This document shows, one piece after another, positions 6,620-16,993 of a DNA stretch of 64,000 bases (its first letter is position 1; every line of letters starts with the position of its first letter). The stretch covers positions 21,484 to 85,483 of the forward strand of contig NZ_DASVCJ010000020.1 in the NCBI RefSeq assembly GCF_036381655.1. Direction: 5' to 3'. A model generated the notes under the pieces. That model saw nothing but the letters and a program-made list of their open reading frames with translations. It searched no databases and was not told the origin of the DNA. The position numbers were made by a program, and so were the translations under genes. Source of the stretch: Ferrovibrio sp. GTDB taxonomy: Bacteria > Pseudomonadota > Alphaproteobacteria > Ferrovibrionales > Ferrovibrionaceae.

Positions 6620-7870
6620 TCAGGAGCGGATCGCGGGTCCCGGCGCCGGCGTCTGGGTCTCGGCGGCGCCCAGGCAGTGGCGCAGATCGGCGCCAGCGAA
6701 ATTCGCCCGCTCCAGCTTGGCATTGCGCAGATCGATGTGATCGAGCACGGCGCCGCGGAAATCGGCGCCGGACAGATCGGCGCCGGACAGGATGGGATAG
6801 ATGATGCGGCCGGTCGCCTGCTGGCTGGCGCTGAACAGCGGCGCCCCGGTCAGCTTGGCGCCACGGAACGTGGCGCCGCGCAGATCGGCGCCGGTGAAGT
6901 TGACCCCGCCCAGATCGGCCTGATCGAAATTCGCCTTGACCATTTCGGCGCCGAGGAAACTGGCGAAGAGCAGCTGGGCATGGGTGAAGCTGGCATTCTG
7001 CAGATCGCAGCCATGCAGCTCCGCGCCGCGCAGATCGCAGCTCGAGAAGTCGCAGCCGGCGAGCCGCTTGCCGCTCAGGATGGCGCGCTGGCCCTCGGCG
7101 CCGCCGGTGGCGATCCAGCGGCTATGGGCATGCAGCAGAACCTCGATCTCGGTCGGCAGGCTGGCCGATTTGCGGTGCACCGCGCCCGACAGGTCGACGC
7201 CCTTCAGATTCACCTTGGAGAGATCGACATTGCGCAGATTGGCGCCCTGCAGATCGGCGCCCTGCAGCAGGACGCCATCCATCTTGGCGCCGACCAGATT
7301 GACGTCGCGCAGACGCGCCGCGGTCAGGTTGGCGCCGCTCAGATCCGCGCCGGCGAGGTTGACCGCGAACAGGCTGGCATTGGAGAAATTCGCGCCCGTC
7401 GCGGAGGCGACGGCGAGATTGGCTTCGTCGAGCTGGGCCGCGCGCAGATCGGCGCCGTCGATCTTGGCCTCTTTCAGGTTGGCCGCCTGCGACTTGATCC
7501 CGCCATCCCCGGCCACGATCTGGCCGGGCCGCAGATCGGCCTGATTCAGCGAGGCGCCGCGCAGGATGGCTTTCATCATGTTGGCGCCGCGCAGATCGCT
7601 GCGATCCATGACCGCGCCCGACAGATCGGCATGCATGAAATCGCCGGCGAACAGATCGGCGCGGCGCAGCTCCGCCTTGACCAGCGAGGCGCCGACGAAC
7701 TGGCAGCGCGACAGAATCGCGTCGTTGAGCTTGGCGTTGTCCAGCCGCAGGAAGCTGAAATCCTCGCCCCGGCGCTGCAGACGCTCGCCGTCGCTGCGTC
7801 CGTTCGCCCAGGCGGCGTGGCGGGACAGCGCAACGGTCAATTGCGATGACGGGAAACGCAGTTCTGCCAT
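6620..7870 (-). CDS. Pentapeptide repeat protein, paralog 1
   Basis: Long A(D/N)Lxx arrays in two modules, each opened by an H-x-x-W cap (LSRHAAW; LHAHSRWIATGGAEGQRA). Confidence 0.92.
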   Translation of the reverse strand: MAELRFPSSQLTVALSRHAAWANGRSDGERLQRRGEDFSFLRLDNAKLNDAILSRCQFVGASLVKAELRRADLFAGDFMHADLSGAVMDRSDLRGANMMKAILRGASLNQADLRPGQIVAGDGGIKSQAANLKEAKIDGADLRAAQLDEANLAVASATGANFSNASLFAVNLAGADLSGANLTAARLRDVNLVGAKMDGVLLQGADLQGANLRNVDLSKVNLKGVDLSGAVHRKSASLPTEIEVLLHAHSRWIATGGAEGQRAILSGKRLAGCDFSSCDLRGAELHGCDLQNASFTHAQLLFASFLGAEMVKANFDQADLGGVNFTGADLRGATFRGAKLTGAPLFSASQQATGRIIYPILSGADLSGADFRGAVLDHIDLRNAKLERANFAGADLRHCLGAAETQTPAPGPAIRS

Positions 7871-8026
7871 TGGCTGGCAACCCTCACAGAGAGAATTACT
7901 TTGGAATGAAATCTAGCAAAACAGCCTAGGACGCCGGCTGGGGACGGACAAGGGACTAGCCGCGCCGCCGAAGGGCGAGGGGAAATCCTGCCCATCCTTG
8001 GCAGGGCCGGCAGACGGCGGCGAGTT

Positions 8027-8063
8027 AAGACTCGGTAACGCAACTGAAAGACTTGGTAACGCA
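8027..8063. repeat. 16-bp direct repeat with 21-bp period upstream of pentapeptide paralog 1
   Basis: AAGACTCGGTAACGCA (8027-8042) and AAGACTTGGTAACGCA (8048-8063), one mismatch. Confidence 0.85.
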
Positions 8064-8081
8064 CCGGCCCGCCGTCTTCGG

Positions 8082-9308
8082 CTATTTCCGGCCGCTCGGG
8101 ATGCCGACGCACTGGCGCAGTTCGGCGCCCTGCAGGTTGGCGCCGTCCATCACGGCAGTGGCGAAATCGATTCCTTCGAAGACGGCGCCGCGCAGATCGG
8201 CCCTAGCGAGATCCGCCTCCTCGAAACGAGGATAGACGACCTTGCCGGTCTTCTGGTTGCGCCCGTTATAGATGTCGACCCCGACCGCCCGCGCGCCGCG
8301 CCAGCGGCTTTCGGCCAGGCAGGTCTTCGTGAAATTGGTGCCGCTTAGATCGGCCAGATCGAAGGTGACCTTGCGCAGGTTGGCGCCGACGAAGCTGGCG
8401 AACATCATCTGCGCGTTGGAGAAGTCGGCGCCTTCCAGCGACGCGCCGTGCAGTTCGGCGCCGCGCAGATCGCAGCCCGCGAAATTGATGCCATCGAGCT
8501 TCTGCCCGCTGAGCACCGCGCGCTGGCCTTCCGCGCCGGCGGTCGCGATCCAGGTGCTGTGCTGCTTCAGCACGGTTTCGATCTCCGGCGGCAGGCTGTC
8601 GCCCTTGCGATAGATCGCGCCCTGCAGCGAGACGCCGTCGAGATCAACCTGGCTGAGATCGACATTGCGCAGATTGGCGCCGCGCAGATCGGTGCCCTGC
8701 AGGCGCGCGCCGGCGAGATTGGCGCCGATCAGGTTGGCGTCCTTCATCTTCGCCCCGGCCAGATTGGCGCCGGAGAGATCGGCGCCGGCAAGGTTGACCG
8801 CGTACATGCTGGCATTGCTGAAGGAGGCGTTGACAGCGGAGGAGACCGCCATGCTGGCATTGTCGAGCTGCGCGTTCTTGAATTCGGCGCCGTCCAGCTT
8901 GGCGCCGTCGAGATTGGCGGCGACTTCCTTGCTGCCGCCCTGCTCGACCAGCATGAGCTGGCCCGGACGCAGATCCACCTGCGCCAGCGAGGCCTGGCGC
9001 AGGACGGCGCGGCCGAGATTGGCGCCGCGCAGATCGGCGCGGTCGAACACCACGCGCGTCAGATCGGCATGCTGGAAGTCGGCGCAGAACAGATCGGCGC
9101 GGCGCAGCTGCGCGCCGGCCAGCGAGGCATGGCTGAACTCCGCACGCGGCAGGATGGCATCGTCCAGCTTGACGCCGTCGAGCTTCAGCTTGCCGTAATG
9201 GCCGCCGGCATTCTGCAGTCGGCTGCCGCCCGGCCGACCGGCCAGGAAGGCGGCATGGCGGGAGAGAACGATCTGCACCTCATGCGGCGGTATCATGTGA
9301 TCGGACAT
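8082..9308 (-). CDS. Pentapeptide repeat protein, paralog 2
   Basis: Same two-module layout (LSRHAAF; LKQHSTWIATAGAEGQRA) and DLRPGQ loop. Confidence 0.92.
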   Translation of the reverse strand: MSDHMIPPHEVQIVLSRHAAFLAGRPGGSRLQNAGGHYGKLKLDGVKLDDAILPRAEFSHASLAGAQLRRADLFCADFQHADLTRVVFDRADLRGANLGRAVLRQASLAQVDLRPGQLMLVEQGGSKEVAANLDGAKLDGAEFKNAQLDNASMAVSSAVNASFSNASMYAVNLAGADLSGANLAGAKMKDANLIGANLAGARLQGTDLRGANLRNVDLSQVDLDGVSLQGAIYRKGDSLPPEIETVLKQHSTWIATAGAEGQRAVLSGQKLDGINFAGCDLRGAELHGASLEGADFSNAQMMFASFVGANLRKVTFDLADLSGTNFTKTCLAESRWRGARAVGVDIYNGRNQKTGKVVYPRFEEADLARADLRGAVFEGIDFATAVMDGANLQGAELRQCVGIPSGRK

Positions 9309-9447
9309 CGTGTGCGTCCAAAGCCGCTATTGTCGTTCAACTGAGGATGGTGAGAGAACGCTAGTTATCGCAACATGTTAATGCAACCAGAAAATGCCGG
9401 TTGCCAGAATTGATAAGATTCGCAATTAGTTATGGAGTTACCGGCGT

Positions 9448-10683
9448 TTAGCCGCGGCGGCCGCGCAGCCCGGTGCACTGGCGCAGGTCGGCGCCAGCGA
9501 AATTCACCTTCTCGAAAACCACCCCGGCGAAATCGACGCCCTCCACGGTGGCGCCGCGCAGATCCGCGCCGGTCAGGTCGGCATTGTCGAAGCGCGGGAA
9601 GATCACCTTGCCGGTCTTCTGGTTCAGGGCATTGAAGATTTCGACGCCGACAAGCTGCGCGCCGCGCAGGGCCGCGCCGGCCAGCAGCGCGCCGGAAAAA
9701 TTCGCGCCGCCCAGGCTGGCCTGATCGAAATTCGCCCGCCGCAGATCGGCGCCGATGAAGCTGGTGAACAGCAACTGGCTCTTGGTGAAGAAGGCGCCGG
9801 CCAGATTGGTCTCGTGGAAAACCGCCGCGCGCAGATCGCAACTGGAGAAATCCATGCCCGGCAGCTTCATCTTGCTGAAGACGGCGCGCTCGCCCTCCAG
9901 GCCGTTCGAGGCGATCCACTTGCCATGCGCGGCCAGCATCGCTTCGATCTCCGGCGGCAGTTTCGCCTGGCCTTCGCGGTAGATCGCGCCCTGCAGATTG
10001 GCGCCGCTCAGATCGACGCCGCTCAGATCGACGCTGCGCAGATTGGCGCCGCGCAGATCGCAGCCGGCCAGCTTGGCGCCGTCCAGATTGGCGCCGACGA
10101 AGCTGGTCTCCTTCATGCGGGCGCCGGAGAAATCCGCCCCCGAAAGATCGGCGCCGGTCAGGTTGACGGCGAACAGCGAGGCGCCGACGAAGGTGGCGCC
10201 GACCGCGCTGGAATTGCTCATATTGGCATGATCGAGATGGGCATGGCCGAGATTGGCCTCCTGCAGATTGGCGCCCGACAGGTTGACCGGCACGTCCTCG
10301 CGGTTTTCGTCGCCCTCCTTCTCATGGCGCACGATCTGGCCGGGCCGCAGATCGGCCTGGCGGAACGAGGTCTGCTTGAGCTTTGCCATCAGGAAATTGG
10401 CGCCGCGCAGATCGGCCCGGTCGAACATCGTATTGGACAGGTCGGCGCGGCTGAAATCGACGCCGAACAGATCGGCCCGCAGGAACTGCGCGCCCTTCAG
10501 CGACGAGCCGGCGAAACTGCAGCCCGGCAGGATGGCATCGTCGAGTACCACGGCATCCAGCTTGAGATCGGCAAAATCCTCGCCGCGGCGCTGCAGGCGC
10601 ACGCCGCCGGGTCGGCTGTTGAGATAGGCTTGATGACGCGACAAGGCCCAGACGACGGGCTCGGGCGGCAAACGCACGGACAT
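9448..10683 (-). CDS. Pentapeptide repeat protein, paralog 3
   Basis: Same layout (LSRHQAY; LAAHGKWIASNGLEGERA); start 10683 chosen by alignment with the paralogs (alternative 10758). Confidence 0.9.
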   Translation of the reverse strand: MSVRLPPEPVVWALSRHQAYLNSRPGGVRLQRRGEDFADLKLDAVVLDDAILPGCSFAGSSLKGAQFLRADLFGVDFSRADLSNTMFDRADLRGANFLMAKLKQTSFRQADLRPGQIVRHEKEGDENREDVPVNLSGANLQEANLGHAHLDHANMSNSSAVGATFVGASLFAVNLTGADLSGADFSGARMKETSFVGANLDGAKLAGCDLRGANLRSVDLSGVDLSGANLQGAIYREGQAKLPPEIEAMLAAHGKWIASNGLEGERAVFSKMKLPGMDFSSCDLRAAVFHETNLAGAFFTKSQLLFTSFIGADLRRANFDQASLGGANFSGALLAGAALRGAQLVGVEIFNALNQKTGKVIFPRFDNADLTGADLRGATVEGVDFAGVVFEKVNFAGADLRQCTGLRGRRG

Positions 10684-10850
10684 GGAATTCTGCTTTTGGT
10701 CGGTCGTGAATCTTTCGTTGCCACCGGCAGTGTAAAGAAAGCGGCTCTGCGCCGCCATGCTTTTGTCGGACAGGAGCCGCTCTTATTCACGCTTCCCTTG
10801 CCGCGGCGGCGCCGCTAGTGTGCAGGCAAAGACGGGGGAGATTCGGTTCA

Positions 10851-11324
10851 ATGGCCGCTGACAAAGCCGCGAGTGCCAAAAAGACGATCGTGAAAGCATC
10901 CAGGAGCAAGACGTCCGGCAAAACGACGCCGGGCAAGAAGACCAAGGCCGCGGCGGACACCGCCAACCGCCGCCGCTTTCAGCGCCGCGATACCAGGATC
11001 ATCGCGCGGCTGGAGCATGGCGCGACCGAGACCCCCGGCGCGGTGACCAACCTGTCGCTGCAGGGCTGCCTGTTCACCCCGCGCGTCGACCTTGCCGCCG
11101 GAACGCGCATCAGGCTGTGGCTGGCGAACGAGACGAAGCCGGTCGCCGCCACGGTGAAAGCCGTCAGCGCCCGGGGCGTGCATTGCCTGCTGCATGCCGG
11201 CGGCGCCACGCTCAGCCGCCTGTCGGCCGATCTCGACGACATGGCCCTGCTGATGCTGAGCGCCGGGCGGCCGCGCTCCAATCACCTGCCCGGGAAGCCG
11301 GCCGCGAAGAAGCGCAAGGCCTGA
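10851..11324 (+). CDS. PilZ domain protein
   Basis: RRFQR (RxxxR) and NLSLQG (D/NxSxxG) motifs; Lys-rich disordered termini. Confidence 0.85.
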   Translation: MAADKAASAKKTIVKASRSKTSGKTTPGKKTKAAADTANRRRFQRRDTRIIARLEHGATETPGAVTNLSLQGCLFTPRVDLAAGTRIRLWLANETKPVAATVKAVSARGVHCLLHAGGATLSRLSADLDDMALLMLSAGRPRSNHLPGKPAAKKRKA

Positions 11325-11340
11325 CGCCGCAAACGGCGCG

Positions 11341-11371
11341 AAAAAAGGCCGCCGGGAGAACCCGGCGGCTT
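11341..11371 (-). terminator. Intrinsic terminator of the T1SS operon
   Basis: GGCCGCCGGG-AGAA-CCCGGCGGCT hairpin with A6 on the + strand (U-tract on the - strand). Confidence 0.8.
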
Positions 11372-11395: not shown

Positions 11396-13066
11396 TCAGG
11401 CGAGCAGCACGTCGAAATGCAGATGCCCGCTGTCGCTGCTGCCATCCTTGTCGGCGATCGCATAGGCCACCGAATCATGGCCGGTGAAGCCGGGCTTCGG
11501 CGTGTAGATGCCGGCGCCCTTCGCCGCATCCCAGGCGACCTTGCCGCCCTCTGCGGTGACGCTGTCCATGCCGGTGATGTGCAGGCCGCCATCGGCGCCC
11601 TTGTCGTTCATCAGCAGATACTTGCCGGCGAAGTAATCCTTCGTGCCGGCCTTGATCCGGTGATAATCGTCGCCGACCGAGACCGGGTTGCCGCTGCCGC
11701 CAGTGGCCGGCGGGGCGGCACCGGCCGCGTCCGAGCCCGAACCGGAGCCTGAACCGCCGGTGCCGGTGCCGGTGCCCGTTCCCGTGCCAGAGCTGGTGCC
11801 GCTGCCGACCTGCACATGGATCGTCGCCGTATCGCTGCTGCCATCGGCATCCTTCAGCGTGTAATCGAAGGAATCCTTGCCCTGCCAGCCTTTCGGCGGG
11901 ATGTAGCGCACCGTGCCGTTGCTGGCATCCCAGGTGATGGTCGCGCCGGCATCGCTGTGGGTTTCGACATGACTGACATGCAGGCCGCCATCGGCGCCCT
12001 TGTCGTTCCAGGTGAGATACTTGGTGTTGAACCAGAGCGACTTGTCGGGATCGATCTTGTAATTGTCGTCATAGGCGAGGACCGGATTGCCGCTGCCGCC
12101 CGAGGCCGGCGGAGCCGAGCCGGCATTCGTACCGCCTGACGTGCCACCCGACGTTCCGCCCGATGTGCCGCCGGCAGGATTGGCGGCCTTGGCGTGATCG
12201 AGGTGCATGGCGAAATCGTGGTAGATCTCGCTCTGGTGCTTCTGCACGGTTTCCGAGCCGTAAAAGCTGCCATTCATCAGGCTGGGCGCCTTGTTGTCGG
12301 ACCAGTAATGGTCGCCGTGGCCGGTCTTCACATAGGCGCCGCCCCAGCTATCGGCGGCCGGATTGTTGTTGTCGGCATTGTCGATGAGATAGAGCAGCGA
12401 GGGCGTATCGCCCATCTTCAGGCCCCAGGGGCGCGCGTGGTAGAAATACTCGCCCAGCGCGCCATGGCCCTGCGCGTCGCTCATGCGCCAGCTATTGTTG
12501 CCGGCGCCGCCGTCATCGACATACATGCCGCGCATCGTGGTGTTGCTCTCGATCCACCACAGATCCTTGAAGGTGTTGTAGATGTAGTCGCGGGCGGCGG
12601 TATCCTGCTGGGTATTCCAGGCCCCCAGGCTGTAAAGCCTGATCTTGCCGGCGATGGACGGATCGTCATGCAGCGCCTGGGCGACATCGGTCAGCGCGCC
12701 CCAGGCGAGCACCCAGAGCGGCTCGGCCGAGGCCTTCGCGGCGGCGACGATCTGCTTGGAGCCTTCGGTTGCCGTCGAATAGCCCTGCGCGGGCGCGACA
12801 TGAACATTGCCCTGCTTGGTGATCGAGCGCAGGTAATCCGGCGTCGCATAATCGGCCGACCAGGTCTTCAGCTTGCCGTAATCCTGCGCATAGGCGTCGA
12901 TCACCTTGCGGATATCCGCCGTGCTGCCGGAATGGCCGGTCGGCGTGGAGACCAGGCCGACCAGGTTGACCTTGTCGCCATAGAGCAGGGCATGAACCAT
13001 CGACTGGGCATCGTCGGGATCCGAGCCGCCGATATCGGTGGAGATGAGTACGCGTGGCTTGGCCAT
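11396..13066 (-). CDS. DUF1593 (nucleoside hydrolase-like) domain protein with two cadherin-like/Ig-like repeats; probable T1SS substrate
   Basis: STDIGGSDPDDAQS, PLWVLAWGALTD and KMGDTPS motifs; two repeats (DD.Y...NDKGADGGLH...Y.P..G..G.DS..Y...D.DGSSD); G/S/T linkers; no signal peptide. Confidence 0.85.
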   Translation of the reverse strand: MAKPRVLISTDIGGSDPDDAQSMVHALLYGDKVNLVGLVSTPTGHSGSTADIRKVIDAYAQDYGKLKTWSADYATPDYLRSITKQGNVHVAPAQGYSTATEGSKQIVAAAKASAEPLWVLAWGALTDVAQALHDDPSIAGKIRLYSLGAWNTQQDTAARDYIYNTFKDLWWIESNTTMRGMYVDDGGAGNNSWRMSDAQGHGALGEYFYHARPWGLKMGDTPSLLYLIDNADNNNPAADSWGGAYVKTGHGDHYWSDNKAPSLMNGSFYGSETVQKHQSEIYHDFAMHLDHAKAANPAGGTSGGTSGGTSGGTNAGSAPPASGGSGNPVLAYDDNYKIDPDKSLWFNTKYLTWNDKGADGGLHVSHVETHSDAGATITWDASNGTVRYIPPKGWQGKDSFDYTLKDADGSSDTATIHVQVGSGTSSGTGTGTGTGTGGSGSGSGSDAAGAAPPATGGSGNPVSVGDDYHRIKAGTKDYFAGKYLLMNDKGADGGLHITGMDSVTAEGGKVAWDAAKGAGIYTPKPGFTGHDSVAYAIADKDGSSDSGHLHFDVLLA

Positions 13067-13140
13067 GAGGGGTCCTTTTTACGCTAGGGATATTGCAAAC
13101 CGGGTAATGTGCGTAAGGTGCGTGATTTCCGATCTGCGCC

Positions 13141-14463
13141 TCAGCTTTCGTTCATGCTCTGCCGCAGCGAGTCGATGAGGGGCTGGGTCAGATAGCCGAG
13201 CGCGGTGCGCGTGCCGGCCATGACCATGACCTCGGCGGGCATGCCCGGCGTGAGTTCGATATCGGGCGCCAGCCGGGCGAGCTGCGCGCGGTCGACCTCG
13301 ACGCGGACCAGGTAATAAGGCTTGCTGCTGTTGGGCTCGACGATGCGGTCGGCCGAGACGCTGCGCACCCGGCCCTCGATGCGCGGCTGGTTGCGCAGCT
13401 TGTAGGCCGAGAGCACCACGCGGGCCGGCAGGCCTTCATGCACGATGTCGATGTCGTTCGGCGCGATATGCGCCTCGATCAGCAATTCGTCGTCGCGCGG
13501 CACGATGTCGAGGATCGGCTGGCCGGCGCCGACGATGCCGCCGATGGTGCGCGCCTTCATCTGCACGACGGTGCCGGCGACCGGCGCGATGACCACGGTC
13601 CGGCGCAGCACGTCCTCGGCCGCCGCCAGCTTGTCGCGCGCCGCGGCGATCTGCCCGGTGACATCGGCCAGTTGCGTGCTGATCTCCTCCTGGCGCTGCG
13701 ATTCCATCGTGCTGATCTGCACATCGGTTTCGGCGATGGTCTGCAGCGCGCGGGCGATGGCGGCCTCGTTGGCGCCGCGCGCGCCGACGATCTCGGCCTG
13801 GGCGCGCTGCAGCGCCAGCAGCCGCGGGCGGCGCTCCAGCCCCTTTTCCAGCAGCGTGTTGACGCCCTTCACTTCCTCGGCGATCAGCGCGAGCTGCCGG
13901 GTCTGGCCGGCGATCTGCGCGCGCAGGCCGGCGATCTCGTCATCGACCTGGGCGCTGCGTTGCTGCAGCAGGGTGCGGCGCTGCTCCAGCGCGGCGCGGC
14001 GCTGCTGCATCAATTCGCGTTGCGCCGTCAGCAGCGCGGCGACCTCCGGCTCGGCGGCATGGCCGCGCAACTGCTCGGCGATGCGCGGCTCGCCCTCGCC
14101 GGCGCGCTCGGCCAGCAGGCGGCCTTCCACCGCCAGCAATTGCCGCAGATCGCCCAGGGCGAGGTCGCGGGCGGCGCGGGCGGCCTTGTCGTCCAGCACG
14201 ATCAGCGTGTCGCCGGCCTCGACATGGCTGCCATCCTGCACCAGCAGCTGCCTGACGATGCCGCCTTCGAGATGCTGCACGGTGCGGCGGTTGCCGTCCG
14301 GACTGACGACGCCCGGCCCGAGCGCGGCGGTGGCGAGCGGCGCCAGCGCCGACCAGGCGCCGAGGCCGCCGAAAAAGGCGAGGCAGACCAAGGCGCCGGC
14401 AATGAGCGGGCGGCGCAGGCTGGCTCGCAGGTCGGGCGCCCCGATCTCGCTGAGATGGGTCAT
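13141..14463 (-). CDS. HlyD/PrtE-family type I secretion membrane fusion protein
   Basis: TVQHLEGGIVRQLLVQDGSHV, coiled coil, IAPVAGTV and LTPGMPAEV motifs. Confidence 0.95.
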   Translation of the reverse strand: MTHLSEIGAPDLRASLRRPLIAGALVCLAFFGGLGAWSALAPLATAALGPGVVSPDGNRRTVQHLEGGIVRQLLVQDGSHVEAGDTLIVLDDKAARAARDLALGDLRQLLAVEGRLLAERAGEGEPRIAEQLRGHAAEPEVAALLTAQRELMQQRRAALEQRRTLLQQRSAQVDDEIAGLRAQIAGQTRQLALIAEEVKGVNTLLEKGLERRPRLLALQRAQAEIVGARGANEAAIARALQTIAETDVQISTMESQRQEEISTQLADVTGQIAAARDKLAAAEDVLRRTVVIAPVAGTVVQMKARTIGGIVGAGQPILDIVPRDDELLIEAHIAPNDIDIVHEGLPARVVLSAYKLRNQPRIEGRVRSVSADRIVEPNSSKPYYLVRVEVDRAQLARLAPDIELTPGMPAEVMVMAGTRTALGYLTQPLIDSLRQSMNES

Positions 14464-14485
14464 GAACGGATCTCCTGTAAGAAAA

Positions 14486-16216
14486 TCAGACGGTGCGGAT
14501 GGCGGCCTTGCGGGCGGCGGGCTGTCCGGTCACCAGCGGCCAGACCTCTTCGATCGGACCGAAGGCCTGCGCCATGCCGTCGCGCAGGAACAGCAGCATG
14601 TCGCTATGCTCGAGCATGCTGGGGCGGTGATTGACCATGATCACCGTGCAGCCCTGCTGCCGGGCGGCCTTGAGCGCGGCCAGCAAAGCCGCCTCGCCTT
14701 CGCCGTCCAGATGCGCGTTCGGCTCGTCCAGCACCAGCAGCTTCGGATTGCCATACAGCGCGCGGGCCAGGCCGATGCGCTGGCGCTGGCCGCCGGAGAG
14801 CTGGCTGGCGCTGGCATCGAGGCGCGTCTCGTAGCCCTGCGGCAGGCGCAGGATCATCTCGTGCACATGCGCCTGCCGCGCCGCCGCGACGATCAGCGCC
14901 GGGTCGATGCTGTCATTGCCATGCCCCATGCGGGCGATGTTCTCGGCGACGGTGCCGGCGAACAGGGTCACCTCCTGCGGCAGATAGCCGAGATGCGGGC
15001 CGATTTCGGCGCGGTTCCAGGCGGCCAGATCGGCATGATCGAGCCGCACATGGCCGGCGCTGGGCGGCAGCGCGCCGATCAGCAGGCGGCAGAGCGTGCT
15101 CTTGCCGGCGGCGGACGGCCCGATGATGCCGAGCGACTGGCCCGGCCTGAGCGCGAAGGAGATGTTGCGCAGCACCGGCTTTTCCGCGCCCGCCGGCGCA
15201 TAGGTCAGTCCTTCGACCGAAAGCGCGCCCTGCGGCTGCGGCAGCGGCATCGGCGGCGGCGCCTGCGGATGGCGGTTGAGCAGAACGGCAAGACGCTGCC
15301 ACGAGTGGCGCACGCCGACGAACTGCTTCCAGCTTCCGAGCAGCTGGTCGATCGGCGCCAGCGCCCGGCCCAGCAGGATGGAGGCGGCGATCATGCCGCC
15401 CGAGGTCAGCTCGCCGCGCACCGCCAGCCAGGCACCAAGGCCGAGGATGGCGGTCTGCACGAACATGCGCAGCGCCTTGGTCAGGCCATGCAGCCGCAAT
15501 GTGCGGTCGGCGGCATTCTGCTGCGCCGTCAGCGCGCGATCCTGCGCGCCGCGCCAGCGGCTCAGCAAGGCCGGCAGCAGGCCGAGCGCGCGGACCAGTT
15601 CGCCGCTGCGCAGCGTGGCGTCGGCCAGCGCATAGGCGTTGACCTGATGCGCTTCGCCCTCATGCACCGCGCGGCGGGTGAGCCATTCGCCCGCCACCAT
15701 CAGGGCCAGCAGCAAAAGGCCGGCGCCGAGCGCGAAGCCGCCCAGCCAGGGATGCATGATCCACAGCACGGCAAGGAAGACCGGCGTCCAGGGCGCATCG
15801 AAGAGCGGCGCCATGGCCGGCCCGGTGAGAAAGCCGCGCACCTGTGCGAGATCGCGCAAGGGCTGCGTGCCGGTCGGCGTGCCGCTGGCGGCCGCATCGA
15901 GGCCGGCGGCGATCAGGCGTCCGGCCAGCGCGCGGTCGAGCCAGGCGCCGAGGCGCGACAGCAGATTGCTGCGCACCGTCTCCAGCGCGCCGAAGGCCAT
16001 ATAGGCCGCCGTCGCCATCACCGTGAGCCAGATGAGCGTATCAAGATTGGAACTGCTCAACACGCGGTCGTAGACCTGCATCATGTAGAGCGGCGAGGTC
16101 AGGACCAGCAGGTTGATCGCCAGACTGAAGCCCGCCACCGCGAGCAGGGCAAAGCGGAACGGGCCGGTCATCAGGTGGAACAGCGATGCGGGTATTGCGG
16201 CTCGGGCAAAACTCAT
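14486..16216 (-). CDS. PrtD-family type I secretion ABC transporter (permease/ATPase)
   Basis: LYMMQVYDRVLSS, GRALAPID, GPSAAGKST, LSGGQRQRIGLARALYG and LDEPNAHLD motifs. Confidence 0.96.
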   Translation of the reverse strand: MSFARAAIPASLFHLMTGPFRFALLAVAGFSLAINLLVLTSPLYMMQVYDRVLSSSNLDTLIWLTVMATAAYMAFGALETVRSNLLSRLGAWLDRALAGRLIAAGLDAAASGTPTGTQPLRDLAQVRGFLTGPAMAPLFDAPWTPVFLAVLWIMHPWLGGFALGAGLLLLALMVAGEWLTRRAVHEGEAHQVNAYALADATLRSGELVRALGLLPALLSRWRGAQDRALTAQQNAADRTLRLHGLTKALRMFVQTAILGLGAWLAVRGELTSGGMIAASILLGRALAPIDQLLGSWKQFVGVRHSWQRLAVLLNRHPQAPPPMPLPQPQGALSVEGLTYAPAGAEKPVLRNISFALRPGQSLGIIGPSAAGKSTLCRLLIGALPPSAGHVRLDHADLAAWNRAEIGPHLGYLPQEVTLFAGTVAENIARMGHGNDSIDPALIVAAARQAHVHEMILRLPQGYETRLDASASQLSGGQRQRIGLARALYGNPKLLVLDEPNAHLDGEGEAALLAALKAARQQGCTVIMVNHRPSMLEHSDMLLFLRDGMAQAFGPIEEVWPLVTGQPAARKAAIRTV

Positions 16217-16443
16217 CGGACGGTGTCTCCTTCAACGATGCGGCAGACACCATGTTCAGTTCCGGTTGTAAACCTGGGTGGGAGCGAGGGTTATCGGGTG
16301 GTAAGCAGCGCGCGCGAGCTTCTCACAGCGATGCCACATGCAGGCTTCCGCCATCACAGGATTCGCCCCCCGCCGATCACAGCAGCATCACAAGCCTTAC
16401 CGCGATTTTAAGGCTTTGGCGAAAAACCGCCGCGCGGGGCGAA

Positions 16444-16950
16444 TCAATCCGGCGCGCCGGCGCCGCGGGCGAGACAGGCCTCGAGCGCGTCGAGAAACGG
16501 GAGCTGGTTCTTGTGAATGCGCCGGCGCGCCGTCGCCAGGTCGAACCAGGCCGCCCGGTCGGCTTCGGGAAAATCGCGCATTTGCCCCGAGCGCGGCGGC
16601 CATTCCATGCTGAAGCTGTTGCTGCGCAGCCTGGCCGGATCGCAATCGCCTTCGATGGCCCAGGCCTGGATGATTTTCTGCCCGTGCTTGTAACGGCCGA
16701 GAGCGATGGCCGCGCCGGAGGCCGCGACCTCGGCGGGCGCAAAGCCGGTTTCCTCGGCAAATTCGCGCTGCGCCGCAGCCAGGGCATCCTCGTCGGGGTC
16801 GATCTCGCCTTTCGGCATCGACCAGGCATGCGCGTCCTTGCCGGCCCAGAACGGCCCGCCGGGATGCACCAGCAGAACCTCGATGCCGGCGCCGTGACGG
16901 CCGGTTTTGTCGCGGCGATACAGCAATAAGCCGGCGCTGTGCTTCATCAT
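16444..16950 (-). CDS. NUDIX hydrolase
   Basis: LLVHPGGPFW, PKGEIDPDEDALAAAQREFAEETG (Nudix box) and FPEADRAAWF motifs. Confidence 0.92.
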   Translation of the reverse strand: MMKHSAGLLLYRRDKTGRHGAGIEVLLVHPGGPFWAGKDAHAWSMPKGEIDPDEDALAAAQREFAEETGFAPAEVAASGAAIALGRYKHGQKIIQAWAIEGDCDPARLRSNSFSMEWPPRSGQMRDFPEADRAAWFDLATARRRIHKNQLPFLDALEACLARGAGAPD

Positions 16951-16993
16951 GACAGTCAAACGACGGTGCCAACCTTAATCCGGATCGCCAATT

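What the first reader, a model, noticed from the sequence alone, without database searches (positions are those of the whole stretch)
11396..16216. Type I secretion unit exporting a nucleoside-hydrolase-like enzyme with cadherin-like repeats
Seen: order is PrtD-like ABC, HlyD-like MFP, then a signal-peptide-less protein. That protein has a DUF1593 domain (Asp-rich TDIGGSDPDD motif) and two Ig/cadherin-like repeats on G/S/T linkers, closed by a terminator. No TolC in the locus. Known: PrtDE-type systems usually export RTX proteases, lipases or adhesins. Inference: a dedicated extracellular or surface-tethered N-glycosidase/glycoside hydrolase, an unusual cargo that could scavenge or destroy extracellular nucleosides, NAD or signals.
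Basis: partly seen in the sequence, partly recalled or inferred. Interest (0 to 1): 0.65.

Follow-up and report, generated by a model that had tools for sequence, protein, structure and literature searches.

The report
Type I secretion operon exporting NH-fold enzyme
A soil Ferrovibrio-like bacterium carries a three-gene unit, a one-step export pump plus an uncharacterised calcium-site enzyme of the nucleoside-hydrolase fold with cadherin-like repeats. Relatives always keep the three genes together, so the enzyme is almost certainly exported, but what it cleaves is unknown.

Summary
On the minus strand lie a PrtD-class ABC exporter (14486-16216), a HlyD-type adaptor (13141-14463) and a leaderless 556-aa protein (11396-13066). 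That protein has a Sde182/DUF1593 nucleoside-hydrolase-like domain and two Big_9/cadherin-like repeats on disordered G/S/T linkers, and is followed by a strong terminator. TolC is unlinked, in a housekeeping locus.

- **Pump-cargo link:** all six independent loci with an NH-like+Big_9 gene have the ABC and adaptor genes directly upstream, with unrelated flanks. Among 40 genomes of the family, cargo and orthologous ABC occur in the same four and no others.
- **Export route:** single-domain homologues carry N-terminal leaders. The Big_9-bearing ones start at the catalytic motif and end in a conserved terminal repeat (…HFDVLLA).
- **Terminal repeat:** the same repeat closes a beta-helix protein inside an exopolysaccharide gene cluster.
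- **Active site:** Ca2+-site and ribose-site equivalents are conserved. The leaving-group His and Glu166 of true nucleoside hydrolases are not, so the substrate is open.

Best reading: a type I-secreted, Ca2+-dependent NH-fold glycosidase acting in the extracellular matrix, analogous to Rhizobium PrsDE with its Ply/Rap substrates. It is a new member of a known kind, of moderate interest.

The parts
16217..16426 (-). Untranslated leader and presumed promoter region of the operon. The RBS GAAGGAG lies 11 nt before the ABC start codon.
   Evidence: The upstream NUDIX gene (16444-16959) ends with a weak terminator at 16427-16442. No sigma-70 consensus was found.
14486..16216 (-). PrtD/PrsD-class type I secretion ABC permease/ATPase, 576 aa, without a C39 or CLD N-terminal domain
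   Evidence: TIGR01842 668 bits (cut-off 510), plus PF00664 and PF00005. It is 73% identical to the ABC of the syntenic Ferrovibrio locus.
13141..14463 (-). HlyD-family type I secretion periplasmic adaptor (MFP), 440 aa, with an N-terminal TM helix
   Evidence: TIGR01843 364 bits (cut-off 209). The gap to the ABC gene is 22 nt.
13067..13140 (-). 74-nt MFP-cargo spacer with RBS AAGGA and no terminator
12182..13066 (-). Cargo residues 1-295: Sde182/DUF1593 nucleoside-hydrolase-like catalytic domain, leaderless. Conserved D11, D16, D18, D19, T126, D127, N151, D220.
   Evidence: PF07632 E 5e-50. AF2 pLDDT above 90; Foldseek finds 2YHG at E 1e-21 and RihA/RihB/YeiK at about 1e-7. Conservation; hhalign mapping.
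12089..12181 (-). Linker 1 (residues 296-326), a Gly/Ser/Thr tract
   Evidence: pLDDT below 50 at 303-323
11804..12088 (-). Internal Big_9/cadherin-like repeat (residues 327-421)
   Evidence: PF17963 and PF17892. It is 85-91% identical in protein, and about 89% in DNA, to the three repeats of the C10 GDSL/RTX protein of the same genome, but only 42% identical to the terminal repeat.
11705..11803 (-). Linker 2 (residues 422-454), a Gly/Ser/Thr tract
   Evidence: pLDDT below 50 at 427-450
11399..11704 (-). Terminal Big_9 repeat (residues 455-556) ending HLHFDVLLA; presumed uncleaved type I secretion domain
   Evidence: It is 64-65% identical to the terminal repeats of the Ferrovibrio orthologue and of the unrelated beta-helix protein P0035, which both end HFDVLLA.
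11339..11369 (-). Intrinsic terminator (9-bp all-GC stem, 4-nt loop, T6)

Best explanation
The three genes form a type I secretion operon.

**Export (inferred from the points below).** The PrtD-class ABC protein and the HlyD adaptor, together with the unlinked housekeeping TolC, export the 556-aa protein in one step, C-terminus first and unfolded. Recognition is through its terminal Big_9 repeat and the D-hydrophobic tail (…HFDVLLA).

**Outside the cell (inferred).** Ca2+ folds the cadherin-like repeats and the N-terminal nucleoside-hydrolase-fold domain, whose active site is itself built around a Ca2+ site.

**Activity (inferred).** The domain most likely acts as a Ca2+-dependent glycosidase on a cis-diol sugar of an extracellular glycan or glycoside. 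That could be the cell's own exopolysaccharide or capsule, or an environmental polysaccharide side chain. The internal repeat would serve as spacer and matrix-binding module. This resembles Rhizobium PrsDE with its Ply glycanases and Rap lectins.

**Scope of the pump (inferred).** The same pump probably also exports the two GDSL/RTX hydrolases encoded on contig C10.

What is shown: gene identities, synteny, phyletic co-occurrence, the leaderless-versus-leader dichotomy, the fold, and the conserved residues. What is inferred: secretion itself, the Ca2+ dependence, the substrate class and matrix binding.
For: 1. Component identity: TIGR01842 and TIGR01843 over their cut-offs, and TolC over its cut-off elsewhere in the genome.
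2. Synteny: ABC-MFP-cargo with unrelated flanks in the window, Ferrovibrio (L011/L024), Shumkonia (L014, two cargos), L015, L016 (plus a GDSL-Big_9 second cargo) and Rhodospirillales MAG51 (L025, two cargos).
3. Co-occurrence: in 40 genomes of the family, the cargo is in exactly 4, and the 73-74% identical ABC is in exactly the same 4, adjacent on the same contig. The other genomes have only ABCs of 50% identity or less.
4. Export-mode dichotomy: 26 homologues (24 of them with Big_9 repeats) start at M-x-K-P-R-V…TDIGG. In 90 other homologues the motif lies a median of 44 residues from the N-terminus, and 75 of those 90 have an uncharged run of at least 10 residues before it.
5. Single switch: on the NH-domain tree the leaderless set needs only one change, against a shuffled mean of 22.4 and 0 of 500 shuffles as low.
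6. Two repeat classes: the terminal repeat is orthologously conserved and also closes the beta-helix protein P0035, which lies in an EPS biosynthesis cluster.
7. Composition: the cargo has no Cys and a pI of 5.3.
8. Fold and site: NH fold confirmed. D11, D18/D19, T126, N151 and D220 align with Asp10, Asp14/15, Thr126, Asn168 and Asp242 of canonical hydrolases, and each is invariant or at least 90% conserved across 87 homologues.
9. Esterase links: a GDSL neighbour, a SASA fusion, and shared repeats with a GDSL protein.
Against:
- The cargo has no RTX repeats, which are the usual hallmark of PrtD-class substrates.
- The four co-occurring genomes belong to one genus, so the phyletic signal is not four independent events.
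- The NH-to-NH-like alignment is statistically weak (hhalign E 0.018; PF01156 28 bits against a cut-off of 34).
- No polysaccharide genes flank the operon in the loci examined, and the contexts of single-domain homologues are uninformative, so the glycan substrate rests on indirect association.
- BLAST found no similarity between these repeats and anything annotated as a Rap protein on Rhizobium plasmids.
Confidence: 0.7

Rival explanations
1. Extracellular nucleosidase or N-ribosidase. The secreted NH-like domain would hydrolyse N-ribosidic bonds of extracellular nucleosides, NAD/ADP-ribose or riboside signals, for scavenging or for interference.
For: The Ca2+-ligand and ribose-contact equivalents of IU-nucleoside hydrolases are conserved, and the fold matches RihA/RihB/YeiK. 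The own genome has no canonical PF01156 hydrolase, and none was found in the 12 same-genus genomes searched, so a scavenging role would not be redundant.
Against: The leaving-group His241 equivalent is Gly and the Glu166 loop is deleted. PF01156 scores below its cut-off. The family's one solved member was deposited as a cellulose-binding protein associated with carbohydrate metabolism. Fusion or adjacency is with carbohydrate-type esterases. No nucleoside transporter or salvage genes are linked in the loci examined.
Confidence: 0.15
2. Non-catalytic adhesin or lectin. The NH-like domain would be a Ca2+-dependent sugar-binding head on a short cadherin-like stalk, secreted to bind matrix polysaccharide or surfaces, in the manner of RapA-type lectins.
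For: 2YHG was deposited as a 'cellulose-binding protein'. The repeat type is that of giant type I adhesins: 9856 representative proteins match it, mostly with tens of repeats. Rhizobium PrsDE substrates include Ca2+-dependent lectins (PMC9298526).
Against: The full set of catalytic-type Asp residues, including the general-base equivalent D11, is invariant or at least 90% conserved across 87 homologues from two phyla. Most family members are single-domain 330-aa exported proteins with no stalk, which is more typical of enzymes.
Confidence: 0.1
3. Adjacency without secretion. The NH-like protein would be cytoplasmic or exported by another route, and the pump would serve other substrates such as the C10 RTX hydrolases.
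For: The cargo has no RTX repeats. Other candidate substrates with RTX repeats exist in the genome.
Against: Synteny holds in 6 of 6 loci and ABC and cargo co-occur perfectly. Homologues without Big_9 repeats carry export leaders, so the domain works outside the cytoplasm. The terminal D-hydrophobic tail is conserved.
Confidence: 0.05

Closest known systems
Rhizobium leguminosarum PrsDE type I system with its PlyA/PlyB glycanases and Rap lectins (PMC9298526, PMC2275737)
   Same: An alphaproteobacterial PrtD/PrsD-class ABC plus HlyD adaptor, with an unlinked outer-membrane partner. Substrates are leaderless enzymes or lectins that carry C-terminal cadherin-like Ca2+-binding domains rather than, or besides, RTX repeats. 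There are several substrates per pump, some encoded elsewhere in the genome, and they work on the cell's own exopolysaccharide.
   Different: The catalytic domain here is the NH fold (PF07632), not a beta-helix glycanase. The cadherin-like modules are the Big_9/Cadherin_5 type and gave no BLAST match to any plasmid protein annotated as Rap. The cargo gene is tightly linked to the pump. No link to EPS has been demonstrated for this cargo.
Erwinia/Pseudomonas/Serratia PrtDEF, AprDEF and LipBCD protease and lipase exporters (RTX review PMC3034196)
   Same: The same ABC subclass (TIGR01842 over cut-off) with no C39/CLD domain. The cargo is a hydrolase encoded next to the pump. From my own knowledge (Ghigo & Wandersman 1994), these substrates end in an acidic residue followed by hydrophobic residues; …FDVLLA fits that pattern.
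   Different: The cargo has no GGxGxD nonapeptide repeats. The OMP gene is not in the operon. The region next to the signal is an Ig-like repeat instead of a beta-roll.
Saccharophagus degradans Sde_0182 (PDB 2YHG), founding member of PF07632/DUF1593
   Same: The same NH-like fold and family (E 1.6e-17 by sequence, 3.9e-39 by profile, 1.2e-21 by Foldseek). It shares the blocks TD.G..DPDD, WG…AQA, HGALG, GDTP and WGG.
   Different: Identity is only about 18-30%. Sde182 has its own Ig-like C-terminal domain (PF21027), which is absent here. Its biochemical function is also unknown.
IU-, RihA- and RihB-type Ca2+-dependent nucleoside hydrolases (PF01156)
   Same: The same fold (Foldseek TM 0.55-0.62 on the target). 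Equivalents of Asp10, Asp14/15, Thr126, Asn168 and Asp242 are conserved.
   Different: PF01156 scores below the Pfam cut-off. The first Asp of DxDxxxDD is Ser/Thr, there is a 3-residue insert carrying an extra invariant Asp, and His241 and Glu166 are absent. The protein is extracellular rather than cytoplasmic.

Membership tests
Type I secretion system (PrtD/PrsD class) | Half-size ABC exporter (TMD+NBD) of the type I class | tested here: met
   TIGR01842 668 bits against a cut-off of 510. Walker A GPSAAGKST, signature LSGGQRQR and Walker B LLVLDEP are present.
Type I secretion system (PrtD/PrsD class) | HlyD-family membrane fusion protein encoded next to the ABC gene | tested here: met
   TIGR01843 364 bits against a cut-off of 209, with a 22-nt gap to the ABC gene.
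Type I secretion system (PrtD/PrsD class) | TolC-family outer-membrane channel in the genome | tested here: met
   TIGR01844 339 bits (cut-off 225) at G000:C82:60192-61613, with a signal peptide, unlinked to the operon.
Type I secretion system (PrtD/PrsD class) | Substrate without an N-terminal signal peptide and with an uncleaved C-terminal signal | tested here: met
   Only 4 codons lie upstream of the ATG in the open frame. The tail …HFDVLLA is conserved in orthologues and in P0035. This is sequence-level evidence only.
Type I secretion system (PrtD/PrsD class) | ABC-dependent appearance of the substrate outside the cell | not testable with these tools
   This needs secretome or Western analysis of a pump mutant.
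RTX proteins | Tandem GGxGxD nonapeptide Ca2+-binding repeats (PF00353) | tested here: not met
   There is no PF00353 hit in the cargo. The only PF00353 hits in the genome are the two C10 proteins. One orthologue, P0015, does carry RTX repeats after its Big_9 repeats.
PF07632 Sde182_NH-like (DUF1593) | Profile match over the gathering score, and the NH-like fold | tested here: met
   170.9 bits against 26.8. The AF2 model (pLDDT 87.8) matches 2YHG at E 1.2e-21.
IU-nucleoside hydrolase family (PF01156) | Profile match over the gathering score | tested here: not met
   28.1 bits against a cut-off of 34.2.
IU-nucleoside hydrolase family (PF01156) | N-terminal DxDxxxDD motif and the Ca2+ ligands Asp10, Asp15, Thr126 and Asp242 | tested here: inconclusive
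   hhalign against three canonical hydrolases aligns D11, D19, T126 and D220 with the ligands. However, the first Asp is Ser, a 3-residue insert is present, and the alignment has E 0.018.
IU-nucleoside hydrolase family (PF01156) | Leaving-group and ribose residues His241 and Glu166 | tested here: not met
   The His241 position is G219, and the Glu166 loop is deleted.
Rhizobium Rap/Ply family (Ra/CHDL-domain PrsDE substrates) | Sequence homology of the cadherin-like module to Ra/CHDL domains | tested here: inconclusive
   tblastn of both repeats against 72,556 plasmids hit Rhizobium only in a DUF4082 giant protein, and hit nothing annotated as Rap, at E up to 1e-3. No profile-level test was made.

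The most novel reading that the evidence does not exclude
Two linked claims.

1. The terminal Big_9 repeat ending …FDVLLA is a portable, RTX-independent type I export domain. In one Rhodospirillales lineage it has been grafted onto at least two enzyme classes: the NH-like domain, and a beta-helix enzyme in an EPS gene cluster. In the NH-like lineage it replaced an ancestral Sec leader.

2. The NH-like (DUF1593) domain is a still unrecognised family of extracellular Ca2+-dependent glycosidases. Nothing is currently known about the substrate of this large family.
Probability: 0.35. Interest if true: 0.55.

Novelty: new member of a known kind. Interest (0 to 1): 0.4.

Why it matters
**A lead on DUF1593.** DUF1593/Sde182_NH-like is a large family with one solved structure and no known activity. 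The library search found no paper using the name. Here the same catalytic domain is exported either by an N-terminal leader or by a type I C-terminal module. That places the domain's function outside the cytoplasm, and it supplies a compact, Cys-free, 300-aa version for biochemistry.

**A possible secretion tag.** The locus also offers a small, well-delimited candidate type I secretion tag: a 100-aa Ig-like repeat with a D-hydrophobic tail and no RTX repeats. It could be tested for sufficiency and might be useful for heterologous secretion.

**Limits.** This does not overturn current understanding of type I secretion. It extends the PrsDE/Ply-Rap theme to another order and to another enzyme fold.

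Tried and rejected
- **Pentapeptide trio as further cargo: rejected.** The three tandem pentapeptide-repeat proteins downstream (6620-10758) have basic C-termini. They lie beyond the terminator and a convergent PilZ gene, and they are not syntenic in other loci.
- **Substrate from context of single-domain homologues: uninformative.** The Ferrovibrio P0037, Indioceanicola P0038 and Lignipirellula P0060 genes stand alone among unrelated genes.
- **Whole-library search with the terminal repeat: no catalogue obtained.** The search was swamped by giant multi-repeat adhesins, with 9856 hits, and gave no list of proteins sharing the terminal class.
- **Homology to Rhizobium Rap CHDL domains: not found.** tblastn against plasmids gave no such hit.
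- **hhalign modes.** Global hhalign of NH-like against NH failed. Local mode gave a full-length but weak alignment.
- **Literature: nothing on this family.** There were 0 papers for 'DUF1593' and nothing on Ferrovibrio type I secretion. An Asaia secretome paper lists only a cytoplasmic nucleoside hydrolase without a signal.
- **Promoter scan:** no sigma-70 consensus was found upstream of the ABC gene.
- **Toxin or bacteriocin reading: judged unlikely.** I considered it because of the type III NH-like effectors HopQ1 and XopQ in the literature. No immunity-like gene is linked, and the family is mostly single exported enzymes in free-living planctomycetes.


Full report
**1. What is in the sequence**

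Three co-oriented ORFs fill 11396-16216 on the minus strand.

- The first (14486-16216, 576 aa) scores 668 bits on TIGR01842 type_I_sec_PrtD against a cut-off of 510. It has an ABC_membrane domain and an ABC_tran domain with intact Walker A, signature and Walker B motifs, and no N-terminal peptidase or CLD domain.
- The second (13141-14463, 440 aa, 22 nt downstream) scores 364 bits on TIGR01843 against a cut-off of 209.
- The third (11396-13066, 556 aa, 74 nt further on, behind an AAGGA ribosome-binding site and with no intervening terminator) matches PF07632 Sde182_NH-like over residues 5-245 (E 5e-50). It also contains two Big_9/Cadherin_5 stretches.
- A 9-bp all-GC hairpin with a T6 tail starts 27 nt after the stop codon.
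- Upstream, a NUDIX gene (16444-16959) ends with a weak terminator. About 225 nt of leader then precede the ABC start.
- The cargo cannot have a hidden signal peptide. The open frame extends only four codons above the ATG, and orthologues begin with the same MAKPRVLISTDIGG.
- ABC and MFP are GC-richer (0.71-0.73) than the cargo and the flanks (0.63-0.67).

**2. The rest of the machine**

The genome is 3.87 Mb in 87 contigs; the window is C20:21484-85483.

- It holds one TolC over the TIGR01844 cut-off, on contig C82. This TolC has a signal peptide. By their first residues its neighbours look like valS, a DUF2497 gene and pcm, which I take to be a housekeeping locus; I did not scan them.
- The genome contains only one ABC protein over the PrtD cut-off and only one PF07632 protein.

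**3. Is the pump-cargo link real?**

*Synteny.* Every independent locus I could fetch that encodes an NH-like+Big_9 protein has the ABC and MFP genes immediately upstream, while the flanking genes differ:

| Locus | Organism or source | Cargo arrangement |
|---|---|---|
| window | this genome | one cargo |
| L011/L024 | Ferrovibrio MAG | one cargo |
| L014 | Shumkonia mesophila | two tandem cargos |
| L015 | metagenome contig | one cargo |
| L016 | metagenome contig | cargo followed by a second one, GDSL lipase + Big_9 |
| L025 | Rhodospirillales MAG51 | two tandem cargos |

*Co-occurrence.* Across 40 genomes of the taxonomic family, the cargo occurs in four (G000, G009, G033, G003). All four are of the window's genus, out of 24 genomes of that genus. 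An ABC protein 73-74% identical to the window's occurs in exactly those four, adjacent on the same contig. All other genomes hold only PrtD-like ABCs of 50% identity or less. A two-by-two table this clean has a hypergeometric probability of about 1e-5. The four genomes are related, though, so they are fewer than four independent events. The patchy distribution and the GC step suggest an accessory module.

**4. Evidence from the way homologues are exported**

Of 120 listed homologues, two groups stand out.

- 26 start directly at the catalytic motif. Of these, 24 carry Big_9 repeats; the other two carry a SASA esterase domain.
- 90 others, mostly about 330-aa single-domain proteins of planctomycetes but also six alphaproteobacterial ones including a Ferrovibrio protein, have the motif at a median of 44 residues from the N-terminus. 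Of these, 75 have an uncharged run of at least 10 residues before it, which fits a leader.

On a tree of the NH domain the leaderless set needs a single change of state, against a shuffled mean of 22.4 and 0 of 500 shuffles as low. The branch itself has weak support, 57.

So this domain works outside the cytoplasm throughout the family. In one Rhodospirillales lineage the N-terminal leader was exchanged for a C-terminal module. The cargo is acidic (pI 5.3) and Cys-free. From my own knowledge, both are usual for type I substrates.

**5. Two kinds of repeat**

- *Internal repeat* (residues 327-421). It is 85-91% identical in protein, and about 89% in DNA, to the three repeats of a second protein of the same genome (contig C10). 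It is only 42% identical to the cargo's own terminal repeat.
- *Terminal repeat* (residues 455-556). It is 65% identical to the terminal repeat of the Ferrovibrio orthologue. It is 64% identical to the terminal repeat of P0035, a protein with an unrelated N-terminal part that looks like a beta-helix. P0035 also ends …IHFDVLLA, and it lies inside an exopolysaccharide biosynthesis cluster with WecG, GT2, GT4, Wzy_C, a polysaccharide deacetylase and a Beta_helix protein.
- *C-terminal tails.* The closest orthologues end FDVLLA or FDVLIA. More distant ones end VDVLLS, IDVLLQ or HVND(L/W)S. One has swapped in RTX repeats with a …DFLFS end.
- *In the model,* the last residues form the final beta-strand of the terminal repeat.

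My reading, which is inference: the terminal repeat plus its acidic-hydrophobic tail is the secretion domain, and the internal repeats are exchangeable spacer or binding modules. From my own knowledge, the tail fits the 'acidic residue then hydrophobic residues' end required by the PrtD-class exporters (Ghigo & Wandersman 1994).

**6. Other likely substrates**

Contig C10 encodes two further candidates.

- A protein of about 733 aa with three Big_9 repeats, a GDSL/SGNH hydrolase domain and RTX repeats, ending …SDLVLV.
- Next to it, a 376-aa GDSL + RTX protein ending …PMDLIGM.

Both lack leaders, and no pump is encoded on that contig in the 14 kb examined. With only one PrtD-class ABC in the genome, the window's pump is probably multi-substrate. 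'Dedicated' is therefore too strong.

**7. The enzyme domain**

*Fold.* The AlphaFold model has mean pLDDT 87.8, with the domains mostly above 90 and the linkers below 50. Foldseek finds 2YHG (Sde182) at E 1.2e-21. It then finds E. coli RihA, RihB/YeiK and RihC-type and plant nucleoside hydrolases at about 1e-7, with target TM-scores of 0.5-0.62. The C-terminal half matches cadherins, protocadherins and RTX-adhesin repeats.

*Conserved residues.* In 87 homologues the following are invariant or at least 90% conserved: D11, G13, G14, D16, D18, D19, H25, D62, W122, G123, T126, D127, N151, H201, G202, K217, M218, G219, D220, W241, G242, G243 and D257.

*Mapping onto canonical hydrolases.* I ran a local profile alignment against three canonical hydrolases taken from related genomes. 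Residue numbers and roles on the canonical side are from my own knowledge of Crithidia IU-NH.

| This protein | Canonical residue | Role |
|---|---|---|
| D11 | Asp10 | general base and Ca2+ ligand |
| D18, D19 | Asp14, Asp15 | ribose contact; Ca2+ ligand |
| T126 | Thr126 | Ca2+ ligand |
| N151 | Asn168 | ribose contact |
| D220 | Asp242 | Ca2+ ligand |
| S9 | first Asp of DxDxxxDD | lost |
| G-S-D insert | none | adds the invariant D16 |
| G219 | His241 | leaving-group residue, lost |
| (loop deleted) | Glu166 | lost |

The alignment is weak on its own (E 0.018). PF01156 scores 28 bits, below its cut-off of 34.

*Conclusion.* The Ca2+/cis-diol-binding core of the fold is kept, but the aglycone side is different. 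The protein is not a canonical nucleoside hydrolase, and its substrate cannot be read from the sequence.

**8. Which substrate?**

Evidence here is indirect.

- *Pointers to glycans.*
  - The one solved member was deposited as a cellulose-binding protein associated with carbohydrate metabolism.
  - The NH-like domain is fused to a SASA carbohydrate-esterase domain in Indioceanicola.
  - It sits next to a GDSL-Big_9 co-cargo in L016.
  - It shares its repeats with a GDSL hydrolase in this genome.
  - The same terminal secretion module closes an EPS-cluster enzyme.
  - Earlier notes of this scan report DUF1593 in xylan loci and fused to a CE15 esterase. These are leads only.
- *Pointers to nucleosides.* The ribose-type site is kept. 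The own genome has no canonical PF01156 hydrolase, and none was found in the 12 same-genus genomes searched.

I rate the glycan or glycoside reading higher, and keep the nucleoside/NAD reading as the main rival.

**9. Comparison with known systems**

The closest analogue is Rhizobium leguminosarum PrsDE. It secretes many leaderless substrates, including the EPS glycanases PlyA and PlyB with C-terminal cadherin-like domains and the Ca2+-dependent Rap lectins (PMC9298526; also PMC2275737).

- *Same here:* pump class, an unlinked outer-membrane partner, enzyme-plus-cadherin-like architecture, and probably several substrates per pump.
- *Different here:* the catalytic fold, the tight pump-cargo linkage, and a repeat type for which BLAST found no similarity to any plasmid protein annotated as Rap.

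Compared with the protease and lipase exporters (PMC3034196), the cargo lacks RTX repeats.

No paper in the library mentions DUF1593, and none links an NH-like protein to type I secretion. Public annotation calls the orthologues 'nucleoside hydrolase-like domain-containing protein'.

**10. Verdict**

The secretion unit holds up well. 'Dedicated' and the proposed substrates are not established.
- This is a new member of a known kind, namely a PrsDE/PrtDE-like type I system with an enzyme cargo.
- Two points are worth an experiment: a compact RTX-free secretion domain, and an exported, tractable representative of a large family of unknown activity.
- Interest is moderate, 0.4.

Noticed in passing
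G000 contig C10:~17940-20165 and 20268-21398 (outside the window): Two adjacent leaderless GDSL/SGNH hydrolases with RTX repeats and D-hydrophobic C-termini. The first also carries three Big_9 repeats that are 85-91% identical to the internal repeat of the window cargo (about 89% at DNA level). That suggests recent intragenomic repeat exchange between type I substrates.
   Followed up: partly
window 6620-10758 (-): Three tandem paralogous pentapeptide-repeat proteins of 408-436 aa, with no leader and basic C-termini. They are not part of the secretion operon.
   Followed up: partly
window 10852-11324 (+): A small protein with a Lys-rich N-terminus and a PilZ domain (PF07238, E 8e-8). It converges on the cargo gene and so shares the terminator region. 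It may be a c-di-GMP receptor next to a secreted matrix enzyme, but it is not conserved in the other loci.
   Followed up: no
window 13500-16000: The ABC and MFP genes have 71-73% GC, against 63-67% for the cargo and the flanks. The module is present in only 4 of 24 genomes of the genus. Both points fit an accessory, horizontally moved unit, although no mobility genes are adjacent.
   Followed up: no
L053 (GCA_964429465.1 contig, 8001-9974): P0035 has a beta-helix-like N-terminal part, three Big_9 repeats and the same …IHFDVLLA terminal repeat. It is embedded in an exopolysaccharide biosynthesis cluster (WecG, GT2, GT4, Wzy_C, polysaccharide deacetylase). It looks like a PlyA/PlyB-like EPS-processing enzyme outside Rhizobium.
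   Followed up: partly
L051 (Indioceanicola profundi CP030127.1, 9001-11634): Leaderless proteins of 877 and 941 aa that combine the NH-like domain with a C-terminal SASA carbohydrate-esterase domain. They have no Big_9 repeats and no adjacent pump, so their export route is unknown.
   Followed up: no
Own genome and 12 same-genus genomes: No canonical IU-nucleoside hydrolase (PF01156 over cut-off) was found in the own genome or in the 12 same-genus genomes searched.
   Followed up: no
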